From positions 34,467-98,466 of the forward strand of contig MGHM01000004.1 of NCBI GenBank assembly GCA_001793235.1: DNA of 64,000 nt. Reading direction: 5' to 3'. The translations under genes and the position numbers were made by a program. The number at the start of each line of letters is the position of its first letter. The first letter of the stretch is position 1. A model generated the notes under the pieces. It worked only from the letters and a program-made list of their open reading frames with translations, was not told the origin of the DNA and searched no databases. The stretch is from Candidatus Woesebacteria bacterium RIFCSPLOWO2_01_FULL_44_24b (GTDB lineage Bacteria > Patescibacteriota > Microgenomatia > UBA8517). This document shows, one piece after another, positions 10,507 to 18,453 of the stretch.

Positions 10507-11829
10507 TTATTTTCTTGTTATTGTATAGCTTACGGGATGATATAAAAACACCGCAGGAGCATCTTCCAACAAAAATCTTTGGAAGTCAAGATAAATTTTC
10601 TTTCTCTCCTCATGATTAAGCTCAACCCTTCCATCTTCAAGAAGTTTATCGTTTCTGGGATTTGAATATTTAGCAACATTAGTACTCGTTTGAGTGGTGT
10701 GCCAAACTGCATACTGGTCGGGGTCGCGTGGAACGTCGTAAATAGCTAAAAAAGCGTCGTACTGCTCGGGCAAAATAGAAGTTACGTGCAAGTCAGTCTT
10801 GACTTCAAGCTCATTCCAAAAGTTAACTATTTTTTCGGCTATAGGCAAAAGCGTCGGGCTAGTACTCAGGTTTATTTTAAGCTCGCCATTGAGCTCCTCG
10901 ATAAGCTCCTTGGCGCGCTCAAGATCATAAGAATAATCTTTGATGAGGGGATTATATGCCCAGGATTCGGGCGATATCGGGCCAAGGGCGCGCGGGCCGC
11001 CGAAGGAGTCTTTATCAATTGCGTAGCTTAAAGCTTGCCGCAAGGGCTTATTTTCCGGTCCCTTAAAGACCTGGCTCTCGTTATTAAAAAACACTGCCAC
11101 TATGCGGTCTTTCCTAACGGTACTTTCAACCTCCGAATTACTCCATGAATCAAAAGGTTTTGGGTCCAAGGCATCAACGATTGAATCAATTTGCCCCAAC
11201 TGATAGGCAATTTTCGTTCCGTCTTCCGAAGGATAGAACCTTATAATCTTTTTTTCTCCCGAGCCGTTTGCGAGCACAAGCTCCTCAACGAAAGTCCCGT
11301 TAAGATACAAATTGACCACTTTCCACTCGCCTGTCCCAAGTAAGCCTTTTTTGAAAGTAGGCCTTGAGACTATTGTGGGAAAAGGCGAGAACGGTGAGCT
11401 TAACTTAAACTTAATAGTATAGGCATCCGGACGCTCAATTGTTGTGTCTTCAAAAGAATATTGAATGGAATTGGCTGTTACCTCAGAGCCATCGTGCCAA
11501 ACCAGCCCTTTTTTAAGATAAAAGGTCCACTCTCGCCCGTTCCCCACCACCTCCCATTTTTCGGCTAGCGCGGGTACTACCACACCGTTCGTCTCTGTTT
11601 TAGTAAGACCTTCGCCCAACATTGAAAGAACCGAAAGCGGAAGTTCCTGTGTATTGTATCTGCCTGTAATGCCGATATATTCGGTTTTATTCACCAATAG
11701 CCGTGGCAGCATAAAACTGGCAAGCGAAAAAAACAAGAGTCCGAACACGATCCCCACAAAAAGAATTACTCTAAACCTTATCAAAAAAGCGGATAGGAAT
11801 CGAAACCAATAGCGAAGACGGGTTTGCAT
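10507..11829 (-). CDS. ABC transporter substrate-binding protein, family 5 (peptide/nickel type), orphan
   Basis: N-terminal TM anchor followed by ...AEKWEVVGNGREWTFYLKKGLVWHDGSEVTANSIQYSF..., typical of SBP_bac_5. No permease or ATPase genes are adjacent. Confidence 0.6.
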   Translation of the reverse strand: MQTRLRYWFRFLSAFLIRFRVILFVGIVFGLLFFSLASFMLPRLLVNKTEYIGITGRYNTQELPLSVLSMLGEGLTKTETNGVVVPALAEKWEVVGNGREWTFYLKKGLVWHDGSEVTANSIQYSFEDTTIERPDAYTIKFKLSSPFSPFPTIVSRPTFKKGLLGTGEWKVVNLYLNGTFVEELVLANGSGEKKIIRFYPSEDGTKIAYQLGQIDSIVDALDPKPFDSWSNSEVESTVRKDRIVAVFFNNESQVFKGPENKPLRQALSYAIDKDSFGGPRALGPISPESWAYNPLIKDYSYDLERAKELIEELNGELKINLSTSPTLLPIAEKIVNFWNELEVKTDLHVTSILPEQYDAFLAIYDVPRDPDQYAVWHTTQTSTNVAKYSNPRNDKLLEDGRVELNHEERKKIYLDFQRFLLEDAPAVFLYHPVSYTITRK

Positions 11830-12066: not shown

Positions 12067-12471
12067 CTATTTGCGAATCCAATTTATAAGCGCGGTAAAG
12101 AACCAAATAAGTATTGAGAAAGCCAAATATGCCCAGGCTCCCCGCTCAAAATCGATGGCAGGGAAATCGAAAAATGTTGTACTAAAGCCCGAAAAATGAA
12201 AGCCCGTTACTTCAAACTCGGAGAGGGCCACGTCCACTATAAACAACGTAAGTGTATGGCCAACAATTCTAAACAGTCCAAGGGTAGCCAGATTTAGGGG
12301 TAGAAGAAGAATATTAATCAGAGGGCGAACGGAAAACATGGCAACCCCAAGCACAATTCCCGTAATGATAAAGCCTTCTGCCTGGTTTTGGAAAGTGAGC
12401 CCGCCGGCAACTTGCGCCGCAATATAAAGCCCTGCCAGCTCAACTAAAATTACCCTTAAAATTCTCTTCAT
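12067..12471 (-). CDS. 4-TM membrane protein (DUF360 / phage-holin-4-like family)
   Basis: 134 aa with four hydrophobic helices. Called from family resemblance only. Confidence 0.35.
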   Translation of the reverse strand: MKRILRVILVELAGLYIAAQVAGGLTFQNQAEGFIITGIVLGVAMFSVRPLINILLLPLNLATLGLFRIVGHTLTLFIVDVALSEFEVTGFHFSGFSTTFFDFPAIDFERGAWAYLAFSILIWFFTALINWIRK

Positions 12472-12532
12472 AGTTCATTATAACTATAACGACTGCAATA
12501 TTAAAATCAACAAAAGTGTTAAAATACTCTAT

Positions 12533-12844
12533 ATGAAAAGTATGGCAGACCAGAAAGCATCCAGATGGAAGCACCCTGGTGGAAAATTAAGGCGTATGGG
12601 CCCTTCTGCACTCTCAGAGAGAGAATTGCTGGCAATAATCCTGGGATCTGGTACAAACGGCAAATCGGCTCTTAAAATTTCAGATGAGATACTGGATACA
12701 TATGCTAACTTACGAGGGCTTATGGGAGTGCCTCTCAAAGAGTTAATGAAAATTAAAGGCCTAAAGGAAGTTAAAGCAACCAAAATTGCCGCCATGTACG
12801 AAGCTAGCAGAAGAATATTAAAACACATCGAAAATGACACCTGA
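12533..12844 (+). CDS. radC: RadC N-terminal (HhH) domain only. Truncated radC lacking the JAB/MPN domain (possible pseudogene)
   Basis: ...LSERELLAIILGSGTNGKSALKISDEILDTYANLRGLMGVPLKELMKIKGLKEVKATKIAAMYEASRR matches the RadC/UPF0758 N-terminal helix-hairpin-helix. The ORF stops at 12844, 11 nt into the methyltransferase gene. No JAMM motif (HxHx7Sx2D) follows in any frame. Confidence 0.55.
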   Translation: MKSMADQKASRWKHPGGKLRRMGPSALSERELLAIILGSGTNGKSALKISDEILDTYANLRGLMGVPLKELMKIKGLKEVKATKIAAMYEASRRILKHIENDT

Positions 12845-15434
12845 CGAGTTCGAATCAAAAATACCAGTCTATAAAATCTCTGCCCAAAAGCAGCTTAATC
12901 GCCAAGTCCCTCCTGCAGCACACACTCCAATGTACATCTGGCATAAGTATTGGTCCAGAAAAACCTGGAATGTCATTGCTGAATTTGTAAAAACATATTG
13001 CCCTGAAAATGGAATCGTTTTTGATCCCTTTGCTGGTAGTGGGATAGTTGCAATGGAAGCTTTAAAAAATAAAAGACGGGCAATAGTCGCAGATATTTCC
13101 CCAATTGCTACAGAAATTACAAGGCTTACCATCAAGCCTGTTTCGGTTGAAAAGCTCCACGAAGTTTATAAAACAGTAGAAGGCAAAGTAAAAGACAAGA
13201 TTCTAGATTTATACAAAACAAAGTGTAGAAAATGTGGCAATGAATTCCCGTTGACTTGTGCTATATGGAAACAAAAAAGGCAGTCTTCTGACAAGCCCAT
13301 CTCGCGAGAGTGTATAGATATCCGGTATAAAGCATGCCCTAAATGTGGTGATAGAAAGGAAAAAGACAATCCTCCAAATTCCTTTGACTTTGAAAAACTA
13401 AAACAGATTGACGAGATGGAAATAAAAGAATGGTACCCAAAAAACAGGCTATATCACATTAACGGTAAACCATTCATGAAAAAAGAAAAATACGAATCTG
13501 TAGATGAATTATTTACTAAAAGAAATCTTCAGGCTCTTGCGTGGCTGATGGAAGCCATAGAGGAGGAAACAAATAGAGATTTAAGAGACTTTTTGAAGAT
13601 TGCTTTTACTTCAATGGTCCATTTATGTACGACCATGTGCCCAATATCTGAGGGGGGTCATTTCACTCCTTATAGTTCGGCCTGGACCCAACAAAGTTAT
13701 TGGTTCCCATCCGGGCCGTTCATGGAACAAAATGTTTGGCTTAAATTTGAAGGTTCAATGATTGGCAATCAAGGTTTGCTCAACGGAAAGAATGAGAGTA
13801 ATAAGTACTTTAAAGATGTAAAATTCGCTCAATCTTTTGAAGAAGTTGTGAATGGTGAAGCTGACATTTTTATCTACACTGGTTCGTCTTTTGATCTTAT
13901 TAAGCAAATGCGTAATGTATCTGGCAATTCTGGATGCGCGGATTATATTTTTACTGACCCACCATACGATTCTTCAATCCAATATGGGGAACTTGCCTAC
14001 ATGTGGATTTCCTGGCTTAAAAAAGATGAAGGGTACCTTGAAAAGATAGCGACAGATGAAGTTATACACAACAAACAGCAAGAAAAAAGTTTCGACACCT
14101 ACCATTCCTTACTTTCTAGGAGCTTTGAAGAAATGTATTCAGTTTTGAAACCAGATGCCTATTTGACTGTCACATTTCATAACCCTACATTTAAAGTCAG
14201 AAACGCGACAATTCGGGCAGGGGTTATTGCAGGCTTTGAACTGCAAAAAATCCACCATCAGGAATTGGCACGAGCCTCTGCAAAATCGCTTTTACAACCA
14301 TTTGGTTCCGCGCAAGGTGACTTTTACTTGCGATTTTTCAAGCCTCCACAGGACGAAAAATCGATAGAGCCTGAAGCAATAGATGAAGCTAGATTTGAAA
14401 AAATAGTAATAGACACAGCAACTCAAATTATTGCTGAGCGCGGCGAGCCCACACCGTATACAATTCTCATTAATGCGATTGACCCGGAACTTGCTAAAAG
14501 AGGATTTTTCTCTGAGCTAAAAACAGGATTAAACATTAATACTGTTCTTGAGTCGCGTTTAAACAACGAATTCACTCTAGTTAAAGCAAAATTAGGTGGA
14601 GCTGAGGGTGACCTTTGGTGGTTTAGTAATCCGTCAAATATTTCTCATCTTGAAAAAATACCCCTAAGCGAGCGCGTTGAACAAACAGTTTTGCGATTTC
14701 TTCAAAAGCAGGGAAGGTCTACTTTTACTGAAGTGTGGGATGCTGTTAGTAGAGAGTTTCCTAACTCACTCACTTCAGACCAAATGAGCATTAAAGATGC
14801 ACTCAAAGCTTACGCGAAGCCTATCTCTGGAGGCAACTGGCTCATCAAACCAAATTCCAAACAAGGAGAGATAGAGCGAGACCACACAATTATTATTGCC
14901 ACACTTGCCAAAATTGGAAAATCTCAAGGATATGATATATGGATTGGAAAAGTTGAGCAGTCTCACATAATTCCTGAGTCTATGAACGGAGGGAAAAAGT
15001 TAGGAGAACTTGTAACATACAAAAATATTAGATCACTTACAAACATACAAAACCCTGATACAGTAGAAGATATTGACTTACTTTGGATAAAAGATGACCA
15101 AATCGTTTGTGCATTCGAAATTGAATCTACTACTTCTATGACAAGTGGATTGCAAAGAGGGTCAAATATTGATAGTTCTGTACCAAAATTTCTAGTAATG
15201 CCTGAAGAAAGAGAGTCGCAATTATTTCAAAAAATGAAATCTCCGATGTTTATCGAACGCTTTCAAAACGACAGTTGGAAAGTTATATACTTTGGTGCTT
15301 TAACAGAAGAGTATATGAAGTCGAAAGGGAAAACTAATATATTTAAGTTAGAGAACAAAAAGGTCGTAGATAAGATGTCTCAAAAAACTTCTAAAAATCA
15401 ACTTGATTTGTTCAATAATAAGTTGAAAAGTTAG
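12834..15434 (+). CDS. DNA (N6-adenine/N4-cytosine) methyltransferase, 866 aa, with inserted zinc ribbon and C-terminal winged-helix plus PD-(D/E)xK-like region
   Basis: SAM motif I is HKYWSRKTWNVIAEFV...VFDPFAGSGIVAMEA at about 13000-13050, and catalytic motif IV is TDPPYDSS at about 13957-13980. A CxxC...CxxC segment (CRKCGN...CPKCGD) lies between them. The C-terminal 350 aa contain IDLLWIKDDQIVCAFEIEST. The gene is AT-richer than its neighbours. Confidence 0.75.
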   Translation: MTPDEFESKIPVYKISAQKQLNRQVPPAAHTPMYIWHKYWSRKTWNVIAEFVKTYCPENGIVFDPFAGSGIVAMEALKNKRRAIVADISPIATEITRLTIKPVSVEKLHEVYKTVEGKVKDKILDLYKTKCRKCGNEFPLTCAIWKQKRQSSDKPISRECIDIRYKACPKCGDRKEKDNPPNSFDFEKLKQIDEMEIKEWYPKNRLYHINGKPFMKKEKYESVDELFTKRNLQALAWLMEAIEEETNRDLRDFLKIAFTSMVHLCTTMCPISEGGHFTPYSSAWTQQSYWFPSGPFMEQNVWLKFEGSMIGNQGLLNGKNESNKYFKDVKFAQSFEEVVNGEADIFIYTGSSFDLIKQMRNVSGNSGCADYIFTDPPYDSSIQYGELAYMWISWLKKDEGYLEKIATDEVIHNKQQEKSFDTYHSLLSRSFEEMYSVLKPDAYLTVTFHNPTFKVRNATIRAGVIAGFELQKIHHQELARASAKSLLQPFGSAQGDFYLRFFKPPQDEKSIEPEAIDEARFEKIVIDTATQIIAERGEPTPYTILINAIDPELAKRGFFSELKTGLNINTVLESRLNNEFTLVKAKLGGAEGDLWWFSNPSNISHLEKIPLSERVEQTVLRFLQKQGRSTFTEVWDAVSREFPNSLTSDQMSIKDALKAYAKPISGGNWLIKPNSKQGEIERDHTIIIATLAKIGKSQGYDIWIGKVEQSHIIPESMNGGKKLGELVTYKNIRSLTNIQNPDTVEDIDLLWIKDDQIVCAFEIESTTSMTSGLQRGSNIDSSVPKFLVMPEERESQLFQKMKSPMFIERFQNDSWKVIYFGALTEEYMKSKGKTNIFKLENKKVVDKMSQKTSKNQLDLFNNKLKS

Positions 15435-16690
15435 GCTTCCCTAATCGCTTTACTTACAAGTTTATGATGGTAGCTTCTCGCAAAGCGGTGGGCTTCATCG
15501 CGCAGTCTTTGAACCAGTTTTTTTGCCGGACTTTCAGGGAGCTCAAACTCATGAAATTCGCCTTGGGTTTTCAAAATTAAAGTCTCCTCACGCTTGGCTA
15601 AGCCAACTACCGGCACTTCGTTGATCACCTCAAGTGCCGCCGAGAGCTGACCTTTACCACCGTCGACTATTATTAAATCCGGTTTTCCCCATGTTTCAAA
15701 CCTGTGTTTCCTTTTAATTAGTACAGATTTTAAAGACCCTACATCATCACTTTTCTTTTTGTCTGAAACTTTATAGTGCCTGTAAAGAGTCTTATCCGGC
15801 TCCCCGTCAATAAAAGTCACCATGGATGCCGTGGGATAAGTGCCTGCCAAGTGGGCCACGTCAAAACATTCGATTCTGTTTAGGTTTTTTATTTCGAAAA
15901 ATTGTACCAAAATCTTTTTTAAACTTATGAGCTCGTTCTCTCTAATATCCTCCAATAGGTTCGGGTTTTCAATATAGCCATCGTCAAGCTCCTCACGGGT
16001 GGTCGTGTAGCTTAGGGCTTCAAGTTTTCTTTTGACATGAGCAGCCTCTTCAAATTTTTCGAGTTTTGAATAATTTGTCATTTCAAGCTCTAACTGATTC
16101 ATTATTAACTTGGATTTACCGGCTAAAATTGCGTTAACCCTTCGCACATTGAGCAAATAGTCTTTTCTTAGTTCCGGATTTTTAACAACCTCGCTTGGGC
16201 ATGGATTGCAAAGCCCGATTTGACTGTAGACACACGGGCGTTTGCCGGGCTTGTGAGTACTGAACGGAAAAATTCTTCGCACAAGTTTTAATACCCGCTT
16301 GGGTGCATTACCGTTTATAAAAGGCCCATAAACATGTTTTAGCTTTTGCTTAGTTAACTCCCTTTGGCGCAAAAGTATTATGCGTGGTAACTCATCAGGA
16401 GTAATTCCAATATAGAGCGAGCTTTTGTCATCCCTCAGAGCAAAATTATATTTCGGCTCATATTTACGGACTAACTTAGCTTCAAGTAAAAGCGCCTCAA
16501 ATTCGGAGGAAACAGGAATGTAATTTAGGAATTTTGCCGTGCTCACCATCTTGGCGGTTTTCGGTGCTAGTCCGCCAGCAAAATAAGAACGAACACGGTT
16601 TTTCAGGTTTTTGGCCTTGCCTACATAAATTACCCGCCTGTGGGCATCGCGAAAAAGATAAACACCGGACAGCTCCGGAGGTAGCTTCAT
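15431..16690 (-). CDS. uvrC: excinuclease ABC subunit C, short form lacking the C-terminal (HhH)2 domain
   Basis: GIY-YIG domain (LPPELSGVYLFRDAHRRVIYVGKAKNLKNRVRSYF), a UVR/UvrB-interacting segment (EKFEEAAHVKRKLEAL) and an RNase-H-like endonuclease domain (IECFDVAHLAGTYPTASMVTF...IVDGGKGQLSAA). The start is trimmed to MKLPPE at 16690, with an ATGA overlap onto the upstream gene. Confidence 0.85.
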   Translation of the reverse strand: MKLPPELSGVYLFRDAHRRVIYVGKAKNLKNRVRSYFAGGLAPKTAKMVSTAKFLNYIPVSSEFEALLLEAKLVRKYEPKYNFALRDDKSSLYIGITPDELPRIILLRQRELTKQKLKHVYGPFINGNAPKRVLKLVRRIFPFSTHKPGKRPCVYSQIGLCNPCPSEVVKNPELRKDYLLNVRRVNAILAGKSKLIMNQLELEMTNYSKLEKFEEAAHVKRKLEALSYTTTREELDDGYIENPNLLEDIRENELISLKKILVQFFEIKNLNRIECFDVAHLAGTYPTASMVTFIDGEPDKTLYRHYKVSDKKKSDDVGSLKSVLIKRKHRFETWGKPDLIIVDGGKGQLSAALEVINEVPVVGLAKREETLILKTQGEFHEFELPESPAKKLVQRLRDEAHRFARSYHHKLVSKAIREA

Positions 16691-18453
16691 TTTCTTCTCC
16701 TTATATAAATAACGACACCCGCTACACAAAAAACAACAGTTAAGCTGATTGCAATAACGTCCCTAGCTAGAGCAGGGTTTTTGTTGGTGGCAAACTCCTC
16801 GCGTGCATTTCCGACGTAAAGCTCGGCCGTTTCTGGCATCGAACTTCCCAAAAAGCCATAGGGGACAGTAAACTCAAGAATTCTTTTTTCATAAGGTAAA
16901 AGAGTTGTGAGATTGCTTTCATATTTTTTTGCACTGTCAAAAAAAAGTTCCACCTTCTGGTCATACAAGGCCGCGGGCCCGGGATTTTCAATTTCAGCCA
17001 CAAGCACCAGTCCTTGAAAAGGTAGGCTCCCCCGCTGTGAGATTGAGATTGCCGGAATCGAGCTTGTATTTTGAGGCAACTCTCCCAGAGCAACGAATAC
17101 ATCCTTTTGAGGGTTAGCTCCCAATTTGTACGAGCCGGGGGGGATGGGGAGCTCGGGGCTCACGCCATGCATAACAAAGTTTATGTGCCGCATGTCGAGC
17201 TTTGTGAAATAGTCAACTCCGCCGGTTGTCTTGCCCCAAGTCGGGTCTACCGGTACCCAGAGGTCACGCTCGCTATCCCAATATTCGGGCCACGCATGAA
17301 GCACATCGGCAACAAGGGCTAAAGGTCTTAAACTCGTGTTGTCTGTATATGCATAACCATTCACTTCGCGGGCCGGTATTCCCTTCGCGCGCGCAAGAGC
17401 AATAAAAAGGTCAGTGAATTCGGTGCAAATCGATTCGGCAGGGTTTTCGAGCGCCGACAGAGCCCCTAACCTTTTGCTCCCCGTAGTGACTTTCTCATAG
17501 TTATAATTCAAGGTATTGACGACGTAATCATAAATTTCTTTCGGACTAGCCAAGCCATTGGCAATTTCTACAACCTTTGGATCTTCTACTTGCCAATATA
17601 CACTTCCTTCAAGAGGGCTGTTTGATGCAAATTGCCTCCATGGAGACGCGAAAACCTGTACTACACCGATTGCGCGAACGTCGAGTCTCTCGCGTGCGTG
17701 AAGATTATAAACCGCGAGCCAATTGCCGTCAGGGTCCACTAATATGTTATCCGGTTTGGGGCTAACAGACTGATAGAAAATTTTTTGAAAAGAAGTATCC
17801 GGAGGGAGCGCAACTTCCATTTCAGTCGGAAGTGCCAGGGGGTTTTGAAGATGGTAGGTAAGATCAAAAGAGAATACCTGAAATTTACCAAACGCAGCAC
17901 TTACGCCCAAAGTAACAACTGCCTTATCAAAATAATAAGTCGTAAATCCCCCCGTACCAAGTTCATTGTCAGGAGGCGGCGACATGTATGAATGCGCACC
18001 AAAACTGTTCGGAACCTTAAGCCTGATTAAGTAAGTATCGAATGTTTCTGTCGCGAGCTTGGGTATTGAAACTTCAGTTACATCTCCGGAAACTCTGACC
18101 ACAGACGCATCCAAATACTCTATCGTAAAATTTTGCGAATTACCCTCTCCCACAATAGACTCGTCAAAAAGAACTTTAAGTTTTACTACATCACCTTTAG
18201 TGAGCTCGACCTCGAGTTCCCCATCTTCGGTAAAGGCACGCGCCTGACTAACTTCGGCGCCCTTCAAAGAAAGAGTGAAATCTGTAGCATGGACCTCGGT
18301 TGTTGCATTGGTAATGGAAATTTCCTGAGTGACTTTGGTTGCACTTCCGTCAACTTCATAAGTGGCCTCACCCGAAACCAAAAAGTCATCAGTGGCATAT
18401 GCAATTTTTGGGGATAGTATCAGTAAAAAAAATACAGCAATAAATTTCTTCAT
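16687..18453 (-). CDS. secreted transglutaminase-like domain protein with C-terminal TM anchor
   Basis: Signal peptide, a long beta-rich N-terminal region, then a transglutaminase core Cys-His-Asp triad (ICTEFTDLFIALARAKGIPAREVNGY...HAWPEYW...D) and a terminal hydrophobic helix followed by RRRK. Confidence 0.7.
   Translation of the reverse strand: MKKFIAVFFLLILSPKIAYATDDFLVSGEATYEVDGSATKVTQEISITNATTEVHATDFTLSLKGAEVSQARAFTEDGELEVELTKGDVVKLKVLFDESIVGEGNSQNFTIEYLDASVVRVSGDVTEVSIPKLATETFDTYLIRLKVPNSFGAHSYMSPPPDNELGTGGFTTYYFDKAVVTLGVSAAFGKFQVFSFDLTYHLQNPLALPTEMEVALPPDTSFQKIFYQSVSPKPDNILVDPDGNWLAVYNLHARERLDVRAIGVVQVFASPWRQFASNSPLEGSVYWQVEDPKVVEIANGLASPKEIYDYVVNTLNYNYEKVTTGSKRLGALSALENPAESICTEFTDLFIALARAKGIPAREVNGYAYTDNTSLRPLALVADVLHAWPEYWDSERDLWVPVDPTWGKTTGGVDYFTKLDMRHINFVMHGVSPELPIPPGSYKLGANPQKDVFVALGELPQNTSSIPAISISQRGSLPFQGLVLVAEIENPGPAALYDQKVELFFDSAKKYESNLTTLLPYEKRILEFTVPYGFLGSSMPETAELYVGNAREEFATNKNPALARDVIAISLTVVFCVAGVVIYIRRRK

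What the first reader, a model, noticed from the sequence alone, without database searches (positions are those of the whole stretch)
12834..15434. 866-aa solitary DNA methyltransferase with zinc ribbon and a C-terminal PD-(D/E)xK-like region, convergent with uvrC
SAM motif I (FDPFAGSG, with the preceding HxxxxRKxxxV helix) lies near the N-terminus. The DPPY catalytic motif comes about 310 aa later. A CxxC-N40-CxxC zinc ribbon is inserted between them. After the methyltransferase core there are about 380 further residues, including a winged-helix-like segment and IDLLWIKDDQIVCAFEIEST. The latter resembles the D...(D/E)x(K/E) core of restriction-endonuclease-fold nucleases. No separate restriction gene is adjacent. 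The gene is AT-richer than its neighbours, and its start overlaps the truncated radC. Possibilities are a single-chain type IIC/IIG-like restriction-modification enzyme, an orphan methyltransferase with a novel target-recognition/effector domain, or a component of an uncharacterised defence module. The stop codon overlaps the uvrC stop on the opposite strand.
Basis: partly seen in the sequence, partly recalled or inferred. Interest (0 to 1): 0.6.

Follow-up and report, generated by a model that had tools for sequence, protein, structure and literature searches.

The report
Fused restriction-modification enzyme with DNA-binding partner
The 866-aa gene is a horizontally acquired single-chain methyltransferase-plus-nuclease of restriction-modification type, and the "broken radC" upstream is really a small DNA-binding partner gene that travels with it in more than 20 bacterial phyla, so this is an uncharacterised two-gene variant of a known kind of system.

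Summary
The ORF and almost all described motifs are real. The 866-aa protein has five parts:
- a split adenine-type DNA methyltransferase (FDPFAGSG ... DPPY) in Dam-like alpha order;
- a 260-aa inserted domain with a Cys4 zinc ribbon;
- two winged helices;
- a C-terminal domain of the NmeDI restriction-enzyme family (Pfam NmeDI_C);
- candidate catalytic residues D748, E762 and E764, unchanged in 81 of 81 homologs.

The gene is not solitary, and the upstream ORF is not a truncated radC.

[quoted passage not shown] It usually overlaps the start codon. It co-diverges with the enzyme (Mantel r = 0.84). In 20 loci it is a tandem duplicate, which suggests a dimer.

No third gene is conserved. A syntenic relative lacks the cassette, and the enzyme gene has GC 0.377 against a 0.43 background, so the cassette is an insertion.

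Best reading: a combined (Type IIC, BtgZI-like layout) restriction-modification enzyme with a Type IIS-style cleavage module and a new HhH accessory protein. Activity, target site and the partner's role are untested. No fold search confirmed the nuclease fold.

The parts
12472..12532 (+). 61-bp intergenic region upstream of the cassette, presumed to hold the promoter
   Evidence: It lies between the divergent ORF 12067..12471 (-) and the small gene. No + strand sigma-70 consensus was found, and site counts were at shuffle level. No operator-like k-mer is shared across 53 loci.
12533..12844 (+). Small partner gene of 103 aa: a stand-alone RadC-N-type helix-hairpin-helix domain (UPF0758_N) with a conserved W-x-HPGGKL N-terminal motif and no JAB domain
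   Evidence: Pfam UPF0758_N, E = 8.8e-20. NCBIfam RadC models match only positions 3-83 of 212 and score below cut-off. The top 120 homologs are all 93-150 aa with UPF0758_N only. The gene is directly upstream of the enzyme in 73 of 82 loci. Reverse test 3 of 3. Mantel r = 0.84.
12834..12844 (+). 11-nt overlap between the partner gene's end (stop TGA at 12842-12844) and the enzyme's ATG, suggesting translational coupling
   Evidence: Sequence GAAAATGACACCTGA. In other loci the spacing is mostly -14, -4, -1 to +2 nt.
12834..15434 (+). 866-aa methyltransferase-nuclease fusion gene
   Evidence: AF2 model pLDDT 82, pTM 0.70.
12924..13133 (+). SAM-binding half of the methyltransferase (residues 31-100), including HKYWSRKTWNV and motif I FDPFAGSG (13020-13043)
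   Evidence: Pfam N6_N4_Mtase model positions 165-215 match residues 42-92. D64, P65 and G68-G70 are invariant.
13134..13913 (+). Inserted, mostly helical domain (residues 101-360), presumed target-recognition domain, with a Cys4 zinc ribbon at C131/C134/C168/C171 (13224-13346)
   Evidence: The cysteines are invariant. The position between motif I and motif IV matches E. coli Dam, the best Foldseek hit (4rtj, E = 3e-4). Mean pairwise identity is 55%.
13914..14348 (+). Catalytic half of the methyltransferase (residues 361-505), with motif IV DPPY at 13956-13967
   Evidence: DPPY is kept in 81 of 81 sequences. PADLOC PglXI E = 2e-44 and MTase_II E = 3e-37.
14385..14849 (+). Two winged-helix domains (WH1 residues 518-600, WH2 residues 611-672)
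   Evidence: AF2 C-terminal model pLDDT 86.8. Foldseek hits are tandem-WH proteins (Rpc5 tWHD2, ESCRT-II, cullin WHB, forkhead), best E = 2e-3. These are the most conserved non-catalytic parts, at 65% and 68% identity.
14868..15338 (+). C-terminal NmeDI-type cleavage domain (residues 679-835). Candidate active site D748, E762, E764 (15075-15125) plus K785.
   Evidence: Precomputed Pfam PF27126 NmeDI_C on the identical protein P0001. PADLOC REase_II PDLC03534, E = 2.5e-6. D748, E762 and E764 are kept in 81 of 81 sequences and in distant stand-alone relatives. Predicted helix-strand order is compatible with a PD-(D/E)xK core. The fold was not confirmed by any fold search.

Best explanation
Window 12533-15434 is a horizontally acquired two-gene cassette.

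Gene 2 encodes a single-chain combined (Type IIC) restriction-modification enzyme with these parts:
- An N6-adenine-type methyltransferase (motif IV DPPY). Its SAM-binding and catalytic halves are separated by a zinc-ribbon-bearing recognition insert, in the alpha-class, Dam-like order.
- Two winged helices.
- An NmeDI-type cleavage domain.
The winged helices plus cleavage domain resemble a FokI/NmeDI-style Type IIS module.

Inferred mechanism:
- The enzyme methylates its target site on host DNA.
- On unmodified incoming DNA, its single nuclease site (D748/E762/E764, a BamHI-like D...ExE variant) cuts at a short fixed distance from the site.
- A double-strand break would need two enzyme molecules.

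Gene 1 encodes a small non-sequence-specific helix-hairpin-helix DNA binder that is translationally coupled to the enzyme. It probably acts as a dimer. It is inferred to be an accessory subunit that tethers or bridges the enzyme on DNA or modulates cleavage.

Shown here: the architecture, the conservation, the gene pairing and the insertion.
Inferred only: the enzyme activities, cutting at a distance, and the partner's role.
For: Methyltransferase:
- Pfam N6_N4_Mtase matches in two separated pieces.
- PADLOC MTase_II and PglXI models match.
- Motifs I and IV are invariant.
- The best structural match is Dam.

Nuclease:
- Pfam NmeDI_C is precomputed on the identical protein and on all homologs.
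- The PADLOC REase_II model is 351 aa, the same length as R.NmeDI (PMC2095814). It hits the window domain at E = 2.5e-6 and relatives down to 1.5e-14.
- The domain superfamily has 1859 cluster representatives and the domain is always C-terminal.
- D748, E762 and E764 are invariant in 81 of 81 sequences and in distant stand-alone members.
- NmeDI is described as a Type IIS enzyme whose C-terminal part cleaves at 12/7 (PMC4081073).
- An unfused version exists, with the methyltransferase and the WH+nuclease as separate adjacent genes.

Architectural precedent:
- BtgZI has an N-terminal alpha-class methyltransferase and a C-terminal variant PD-(D/E)xK domain (PMC4081073).

Partner:
- Present in 73 of 82 loci.
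- Only two gene families are conserved in the flanks.
- Start/stop overlaps are typical.
- 48 loci have a single-domain partner and 20 have a tandem partner.
- Mantel r = 0.84, with 0 of 999 permutations reaching it.
- Reverse look-ups agree, 3 of 3.
- The RadC N-terminal region is an HhH domain (PMC3239186).

Insertion:
- GC 0.377 against 0.43.
- The syntenic relative L090 lacks the cassette.
Against: - No activity data exist for any family member.
- There is no sequence link to any older PD-(D/E)xK Pfam family and no PDB sequence hit.
- The third catalytic position is E, not K.
- About 10 loci lack the partner yet keep every catalytic residue, so the partner is not strictly required.
- The recognition parts are 55-68% identical across phyla. 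That is unusual for restriction enzymes under diversifying selection.
Confidence: 0.6

Rival explanations
1. It is a two-component system that is not classical restriction-modification. The HhH partner would be the key licensing or inhibiting subunit. For example, the pair could be an addiction-type or abortive module in which the partner restrains or activates the nuclease. Alternatively it could be a methylation-coupled DNA-processing system.
For: The pairing is tight and the two genes co-diverge. They are translationally coupled. The recognition domains are unusually conserved across phyla. The cassette often sits near toxin-antitoxin or defence genes. No known restriction-modification system with an HhH accessory turned up in the literature searches.
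Against: Partner-less loci keep intact nuclease and methyltransferase residues, which argues against an essential antitoxin. All domains of the large protein are ordinary restriction-modification parts. An unfused M | R arrangement exists.
Confidence: 0.17
2. It is an orphan methyltransferase whose C-terminal WH-WH-NmeDI_C region is a non-catalytic DNA-binding or targeting module.
For: There is no separate nuclease or second methyltransferase nearby. The nuclease fold is unconfirmed by fold search. The motif is ExE instead of ExK. NCBI annotates homologs simply as DNA methyltransferase.
Against: D748, E762, E764 and K785 are invariant, or nearly so for K785, over 81 sequences and in stand-alone relatives. 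The domain family is named for an active restriction enzyme (PMC2095814). Internal-deletion remnants (P0138, P0351) suggest a costly gene that decays.
Confidence: 0.12
3. The winged helices act as m6A readers, as in DpnI-type wH-fusion nucleases. The C-terminal module would then be modification-dependent (Type IV/IIM-like).
For: Prokaryotic wH-nuclease fusions can be m6A-dependent (PMC11037411). Two WH domains sit directly before the nuclease.
Against: Fusion to an adenine methyltransferase would make the enzyme attack its own product. The WH region gave no sequence or structural match to DpnI-type wH. That paper reports that methyltransferase genes are rare next to such enzymes (section heading).
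Confidence: 0.04
4. One reading: a solitary methyltransferase that landed in and truncated radC (and perhaps uvrC).
For: The upstream ORF matches only the N-terminal third of RadC models. uvrC lacks its HhH2 domain.
Against: The small ORF is a conserved partner in 73 of 82 loci from more than 20 phyla. Its relatives are all about 100 aa. The syntenic relative has no radC at this site, and its UvrC is equally short at 442 aa.
Confidence: 0.02

Closest known systems
BtgZI (Type IIC/IIS enzyme, GCGATG 10/14), as described in PMC4081073
   Same: A single chain with an N-terminal alpha-class methyltransferase and a C-terminal variant PD-(D/E)xK cleavage domain. The expected behaviour is cutting at a fixed distance outside the site.
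   Different: Homology could not be tested because the BtgZI sequence is not in the available tools. BtgZI's variant motif has Q in place of E, whereas here E replaces K. No HhH partner is reported for BtgZI.
R.NmeDI (Neisseria meningitidis, 351 aa, cuts 12/7 on both sides of RCCGGY; PMC2095814, PMC4081073)
   Same: The C-terminal cleavage domain is the same family (Pfam NmeDI_C; PADLOC REase_II model).
   Different: NmeDI is a stand-alone nuclease with a different N-terminal recognition domain (NmeDI-sized relatives). It works with a separate C5 methyltransferase and a Vsr protein. It has no winged-helix pair, no fused methyltransferase and no HhH partner.
MmeI/BpuSI-type Type IIG enzymes
   Same: Nuclease and adenine methyltransferase sit in one polypeptide. 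There is a single nuclease site, so transient dimerisation is needed.
   Different: Those have an N-terminal nuclease, a gamma-class NPPY methyltransferase, a C-terminal shared recognition domain and rapidly diverging specificity. Here the order is reversed, the methyltransferase has DPPY in alpha order, and the recognition parts are highly conserved.
FokI (Type IIS)
   Same: Winged-helix-type recognition subdomains are followed by a non-specific C-terminal cleavage domain with one active site (textbook knowledge of the FokI structure).
   Different: FokI has no methyltransferase domain. There is no detectable sequence or Foldseek similarity here.
RadC (UPF0758) proteins
   Same: The partner's whole length matches the RadC N-terminal HhH domain.
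   Different: It lacks the JAB/MPN domain that defines RadC. It has HPGGKL where, from my own recollection of RadC alignments (not tested here), RadC has RPRERL. It is tied to a restriction-modification-type gene.
BREX type 3 PglXI / DUF1156 methyltransferases
   Same: This is the best PADLOC match for the methyltransferase core and its insert (E = 2e-44).
   Different: None of the other BREX genes is present, and only two genes are conserved. PglXI has no NmeDI_C domain.

Membership tests
Type IIC (combined) restriction-modification enzymes | Methyltransferase catalytic motifs in the same polypeptide as an endonuclease domain | tested here: met
   FDPFAGSG and DPPY plus NmeDI_C lie in one 866-aa ORF. 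All are invariant.
Type IIC (combined) restriction-modification enzymes | Demonstrated DNA cleavage and methylation at a defined sequence | not testable with these tools
   No biochemical or methylome data exist. All homologs come from uncultured metagenome-assembled genomes.
Type IIG sensu stricto (MmeI/BpuSI-like) | N-terminal PD-ExK nuclease, gamma-class NPPY methyltransferase and C-terminal shared specificity domain | tested here: not met
   The nuclease is C-terminal. Motif IV is DPPY. Motif I precedes motif IV with a 260-aa insert, and Dam is the best structural match.
BtgZI-like Type IIC | N-terminal alpha-class methyltransferase plus C-terminal variant PD-(D/E)xK domain | tested here: inconclusive
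   The layout matches the description in PMC4081073. Sequence homology to BtgZI could not be tested.
NmeDI_C domain family (Pfam PF27126) | Significant match to the family model | tested here: met
   A precomputed Pfam hit exists on the 100%-identical P0001 and on all listed homologs. An independent PADLOC NmeDI-length REase_II model matches at E = 2.5e-6. PF27126 is absent from the local Pfam copy, so it was not re-scored here.
PD-(D/E)xK nuclease superfamily | alpha-beta-beta-beta-alpha-beta core with D at the start of strand 2 and (D/E)xK in strand 3 | tested here: inconclusive
RadC / UPF0758 | N-terminal HhH domain (UPF0758_N) | tested here: met
   Pfam E = 8.8e-20 over residues 13-82.
RadC / UPF0758 | C-terminal RadC-type JAB/MPN domain | tested here: not met
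   The protein ends at residue 103. NCBIfam RadC models match only positions 3-83 of 212 and score below cut-off. None of the 120 closest homologs has the domain.
BREX (type 3, PglXI) | Methyltransferase embedded in an operon with brxA, brxC, pglZ and brxHII | tested here: not met
   Only the partner gene is conserved in the flanks of 82 loci. The window's neighbours are housekeeping genes.
C-protein-controlled Type II restriction-modification | Small HTH controller with a conserved operator (C-box) upstream | tested here: not met
   The small protein is HhH, not HTH. No k-mer is shared above shuffle level in 53 upstream regions.

The most novel reading that the evidence does not exclude
The HhH partner is an obligatory functional subunit, making the pair a distinct two-component immune system. 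A dimeric, non-sequence-specific DNA clamp would bridge two methyltransferase-nuclease molecules or license their cleavage. That would be a way of controlling a fused restriction-modification enzyme not seen in any characterised system. The near-constant recognition domains would give one shared, long or unusual target across more than 20 phyla.
Probability: 0.2. Interest if true: 0.65.

Novelty: new variant of a known kind. Interest (0 to 1): 0.45.

Why it matters
If the reading holds, this is an uncharacterised, widely spread family of single-chain restriction-modification enzymes. It was found in 171 of about 185,600 species genomes, spanning more than 20 phyla, with more than 1300 proteins. 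Its domain order is rare: alpha-order methyltransferase first and NmeDI-type cleavage domain last.

It also has an accessory protein of a type not known to work with restriction enzymes. That would give the stand-alone RadC-N-type HhH proteins, now mislabelled "DNA repair protein RadC", their first functional context.

It could also supply a new cut-at-a-distance enzyme for laboratory use.

For annotation, it shows that these small ORFs are not gene fragments. It also shows that "DNA methyltransferase" understates what the large gene encodes.

Tried and rejected
- Foldseek of the C-terminal model against PDB and BFVD was dominated by the winged helices and gave no significant nuclease hit.
- Profile searches of PDB sequences with the nuclease domain found nothing.
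- A permissive Pfam scan of 25 domain members found nothing.
- P0138 (UPF0758_N + NmeDI_C in one 214-aa protein) was considered as a natural fusion that would prove interaction. It was rejected because the sequence shows an internal deletion joining partner residue ~72 to the middle of the nuclease domain.
- L089 was first read as a classical R-M pair with the convergent 269-aa methyltransferase. That was revised because the ORF upstream of the nuclease is the end of a family methyltransferase, so L089 is an unfused version.
- The idea of a controller protein with an operator was tested and not supported.
- Promoter, terminator and border-repeat scans were at background level.
- Truncation of uvrC by the insertion was rejected.
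- Literature searches for the gene pair, UPF0758 and BtgZI genetics gave nothing specific.
Full report
**1. Observation**

The ORF at 12834..15434 (+) exists and encodes 866 aa.
- HKYWSRKTWNV at residues 37-47
- FDPFAGSG at 63-70
- CRKC at 131-134 and CPKC at 168-171, so the spacing is 33 residues, not 40
- DPPY at 375-378
- IDLLWIKDDQIVCAFEIEST at 747-766

Pfam matches the beta-class N6_N4_Mtase model in a permuted way. The end of the model (positions 165-215) matches residues 42-92, and the DPPY half comes about 300 residues later.

The gene is AT-richer than its surroundings. Its GC is 0.377 and GC3 is 0.332, against 0.42-0.46 for neighbours. That is the 1.3rd percentile of 2.6-kb windows, and the nuclease part is lowest at 0.326.

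Its ATG overlaps the upstream ORF by 11 nt. Its TAG overlaps the uvrC stop on the other strand, read as TTAG.

The window protein is identical to a hypothetical protein of Candidatus Woesebacteria bacterium RIFCSPHIGHO2_01_FULL_44_21.

**2. Anatomy of the large protein**

The AlphaFold2 models are confident. The full-length model has pLDDT 82 and pTM 0.70. The model of residues 506-866 has pLDDT 86.8 and pTM 0.79. They give these parts:
- a disordered N-terminus
- a SAM-binding half (residues 31-100)
- a mainly helical insert with the Cys4 ribbon (101-360)
- a catalytic half (361-505)
- two winged helices (518-600 and 611-672)
- an alpha/beta domain (679-835)
- a disordered tail

The best structural match of the full model is E. 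coli Dam (4rtj, E = 3e-4, about 480 aligned columns). Dam is the textbook alpha-class enzyme, with the recognition domain inserted between motif I and motif IV. DPPY is the motif typical of N6-adenine enzymes, from general knowledge of methyltransferase motif IV.

PADLOC places the core closest to PglXI (E = 2e-44) and to Type II methyltransferase models (E = 3e-37).

**3. The C-terminal domain**

Every homolog, including the 100%-identical database entry, carries a precomputed Pfam hit, PF27126 NmeDI_C. My local Pfam copy lacks that model.

There is independent support. A PADLOC Type II restriction-enzyme model of 351 positions hits the domain. That is the published length of R.NmeDI (PMC2095814). 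The E-value is 2.5e-6 for the window domain and as low as 1.5e-14 for stand-alone relatives.

The 2014 Type II review describes NmeDI as a symmetric Type IIS enzyme that cuts 12/7 on both sides of RCCGGY. It describes Type IIS enzymes as a recognition domain plus a non-specific C-terminal cleavage domain (PMC4081073).

A domain-only profile finds 1859 cluster representatives in 1.84 billion proteins. The domain is always C-terminal, on proteins of several sizes.

D748, E762 and E764 are unchanged in 81 of 81 family members and in distant stand-alone members. K785 is K or R.

The predicted strand order fits a PD-(D/E)xK core of the BamHI-like D...ExE kind. D748 sits just before a beta-hairpin whose second strand ends in E762-x-E764. 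This remains an inference, for three reasons:
- Foldseek against PDB and against viral models returned only winged-helix matches.
- There is no sequence link to older nuclease families or to PDB chains.

The last ~275 residues are 34% identical (E = 8e-46) to a 293-aa stand-alone protein, P0214. In its contig, P0214 follows a separately encoded methyltransferase of this same family. So the WH-plus-nuclease unit can exist as its own polypeptide.

**4. The gene is not solitary**

In the first contexts examined, a 109-111-aa ORF with only the UPF0758_N domain lay directly upstream on the same strand.

A scan of one genome per species found the family in 171 genomes. It returned 80 loci from more than 20 phyla, all metagenome-assembled. 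The findings across these loci:
- The small gene is present immediately upstream in 73 of the 82 loci with room for it.
- Clustering all flanking ORFs shows only two conserved families, the enzyme and the small protein. The other recurrent clusters are antisense shadows inside the enzyme gene.
- Spacing is mostly -14, -4, -1 to +2 nt.
- The 120 closest relatives of the small protein are all 93-150 aa, and none has the RadC JAB domain.
- Starting from three of them on long contigs, the downstream gene is each time an 835-843-aa methyltransferase-NmeDI_C protein.
- Distances between partners and between enzymes correlate strongly (Mantel r = 0.84, 0 of 999 permutations reach it, n = 48).
- In 20 loci the partner is a tandem duplication of the domain. 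This is what is expected if the single-domain form works as a dimer.

The RadC N-terminal region is a helix-hairpin-helix DNA-binding domain (PMC3239186). No operator-like motif is shared upstream of the cassette in 53 loci, which argues against a sequence-specific controller protein.

About ten loci lack the partner but keep every catalytic residue. So the partner is not indispensable for tolerating the enzyme.

**5. Context in the window**

A metagenomic relative (UvrC 55% identical) has the same gene order: transglutaminase-like gene, uvrC, a homolog of ORF 12067..12471, a homolog of ORF 10507..11829, then PPIase. It has no cassette, and an unrelated 148-aa membrane-protein gene occupies the position instead. 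Its UvrC is also short, at 442 aa, with no HhH2 domain.

Together with the composition, this shows three things:
- 12533-15434 is an insertion.
- uvrC was not truncated.
- There was no radC here to truncate.

No border repeats or clear promoter or terminator signals were found.

**6. Mechanism proposed**

Shown:
- A two-gene, horizontally mobile cassette.
- An intact adenine-type methyltransferase and an intact NmeDI-family domain in one chain.
- A co-inherited HhH partner.

Inferred:
- The enzyme marks its site on host DNA.
- It cuts unmarked DNA a short distance away with its single nuclease site, as Type IIS and Type IIC enzymes do.
- A double-strand break therefore needs two molecules (behaviour described for Type IIC enzymes in PMC4081073).
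- The HhH dimer tethers, bridges or tunes this.

The recognition parts are more conserved than the nuclease. Mean pairwise identity is 55% for the insert, 65% and 68% for the two winged helices, and 48% for the nuclease. This suggests one shared specificity across the family, unlike MmeI-type enzymes.

Decay products occur: P0138, and P0351 with an internal deletion. That is consistent with a costly, dispensable gene.

**7. Comparison and novelty**

The layout matches the one atypical Type IIC enzyme singled out in the review, BtgZI. BtgZI has an N-terminal alpha-class methyltransferase and a C-terminal variant PD-(D/E)xK domain (PMC4081073). Homology to BtgZI could not be tested.

It is not a typical Type IIG enzyme, not a BREX component and not a RadC. 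See the membership table.

I found no paper describing this gene pair. The core is therefore a new family within a known kind. The conserved HhH partner is the new element, so I rate the finding as a new variant of a known kind.

Confidence:
- Architecture and gene pairing: about 0.9.
- Restriction-modification function: about 0.6.
- Any specific role for the partner: about 0.3.

Noticed in passing
window 15431-16729 (-); L090 1100-2428: UvrC here is only 432 aa and lacks the usual C-terminal (HhH)2 domain. It has GIY-YIG, UVR and RNase H-like endonuclease domains only. A syntenic relative without the cassette has a 442-aa UvrC that ends the same way, so this is a lineage trait of these Woesebacteria-like genomes.
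   Followed up: partly
L086 5001-5645 (P0138); P0351: Two decay products of the cassette. P0138 joins partner residues 1-72 to the middle of the nuclease domain and lies among PIN, NTP_transf_2/HepT, DUF559 and NYN genes. P0351 joins methyltransferase residues ~1-115 to WH2 plus the nuclease.
   Followed up: partly
L089 1-2282: An unfused version of the system. The end of a family methyltransferase ORF is followed by a separate WH+NmeDI_C gene (P0214). A convergent 269-aa SPPY beta-class methyltransferase and a 57-aa ORF lie next to them and may be a second system. The contig ends before any partner gene could be seen.
   Followed up: partly
P0415, P0434, P0426, P0225 (no window coordinates): NmeDI-sized (305-371 aa) stand-alone proteins carry the same cleavage domain behind a different N-terminal domain. 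In P0415 and P0225 that domain matches NCBIfam PRK00809 (E = 2e-8 and 8e-4; P0434 and P0426 gave no hit). So one cleavage domain is combined with different recognition modules.
   Followed up: no
P0369, P0371, P0386, P0387, P0390, P0430 and similar (no window coordinates): A 560-630-aa class, about 34% identical to the window protein, starts at a Met equivalent to window residue 261. It has only the DPPY half of the methyltransferase. Whether it is a split-gene variant or a set of truncated gene calls is unresolved.
   Followed up: partly
L091 2688-3839 and 6902-7462; L093 2817-3854; L004 13282-13851; L060 5339-7510: The cassette often lies next to toxin or defence-type genes: Fic upstream in two unrelated loci, a HEPN-like gene and an RnlA-DBD-like gene downstream, and a large KAP-like NTPase-looking ORF downstream in L060 (that last label is my reading of its sequence, with no domain scan). 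None of these is conserved across loci.
   Followed up: no
L084 (CVSM01000141.1, 2725 bp): One family member sits on a 2.7-kb contig of an assembly labelled Candidatus Pelagibacter ubique. Given its short length and its relatives, it is probably a contaminant contig rather than a Pelagibacter gene.
   Followed up: no
L017, L018, L020, L021, L024, L026, L029-L032, L036, L041, L045-L047, L049, L051, L056, L057, L063, L065: In about 20 loci the partner is a 183-225-aa tandem duplication of the HhH domain. These cluster in particular clades of the enzyme tree.
   Followed up: yes
window 16687-16729: The 588-aa ORF (16687..18453, -) upstream of uvrC overlaps the uvrC start region by 43 nt if the TTG start at 16729 is used. 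The uvrC start is probably the internal ATG a few codons downstream (MKLPPE...).
   Followed up: no
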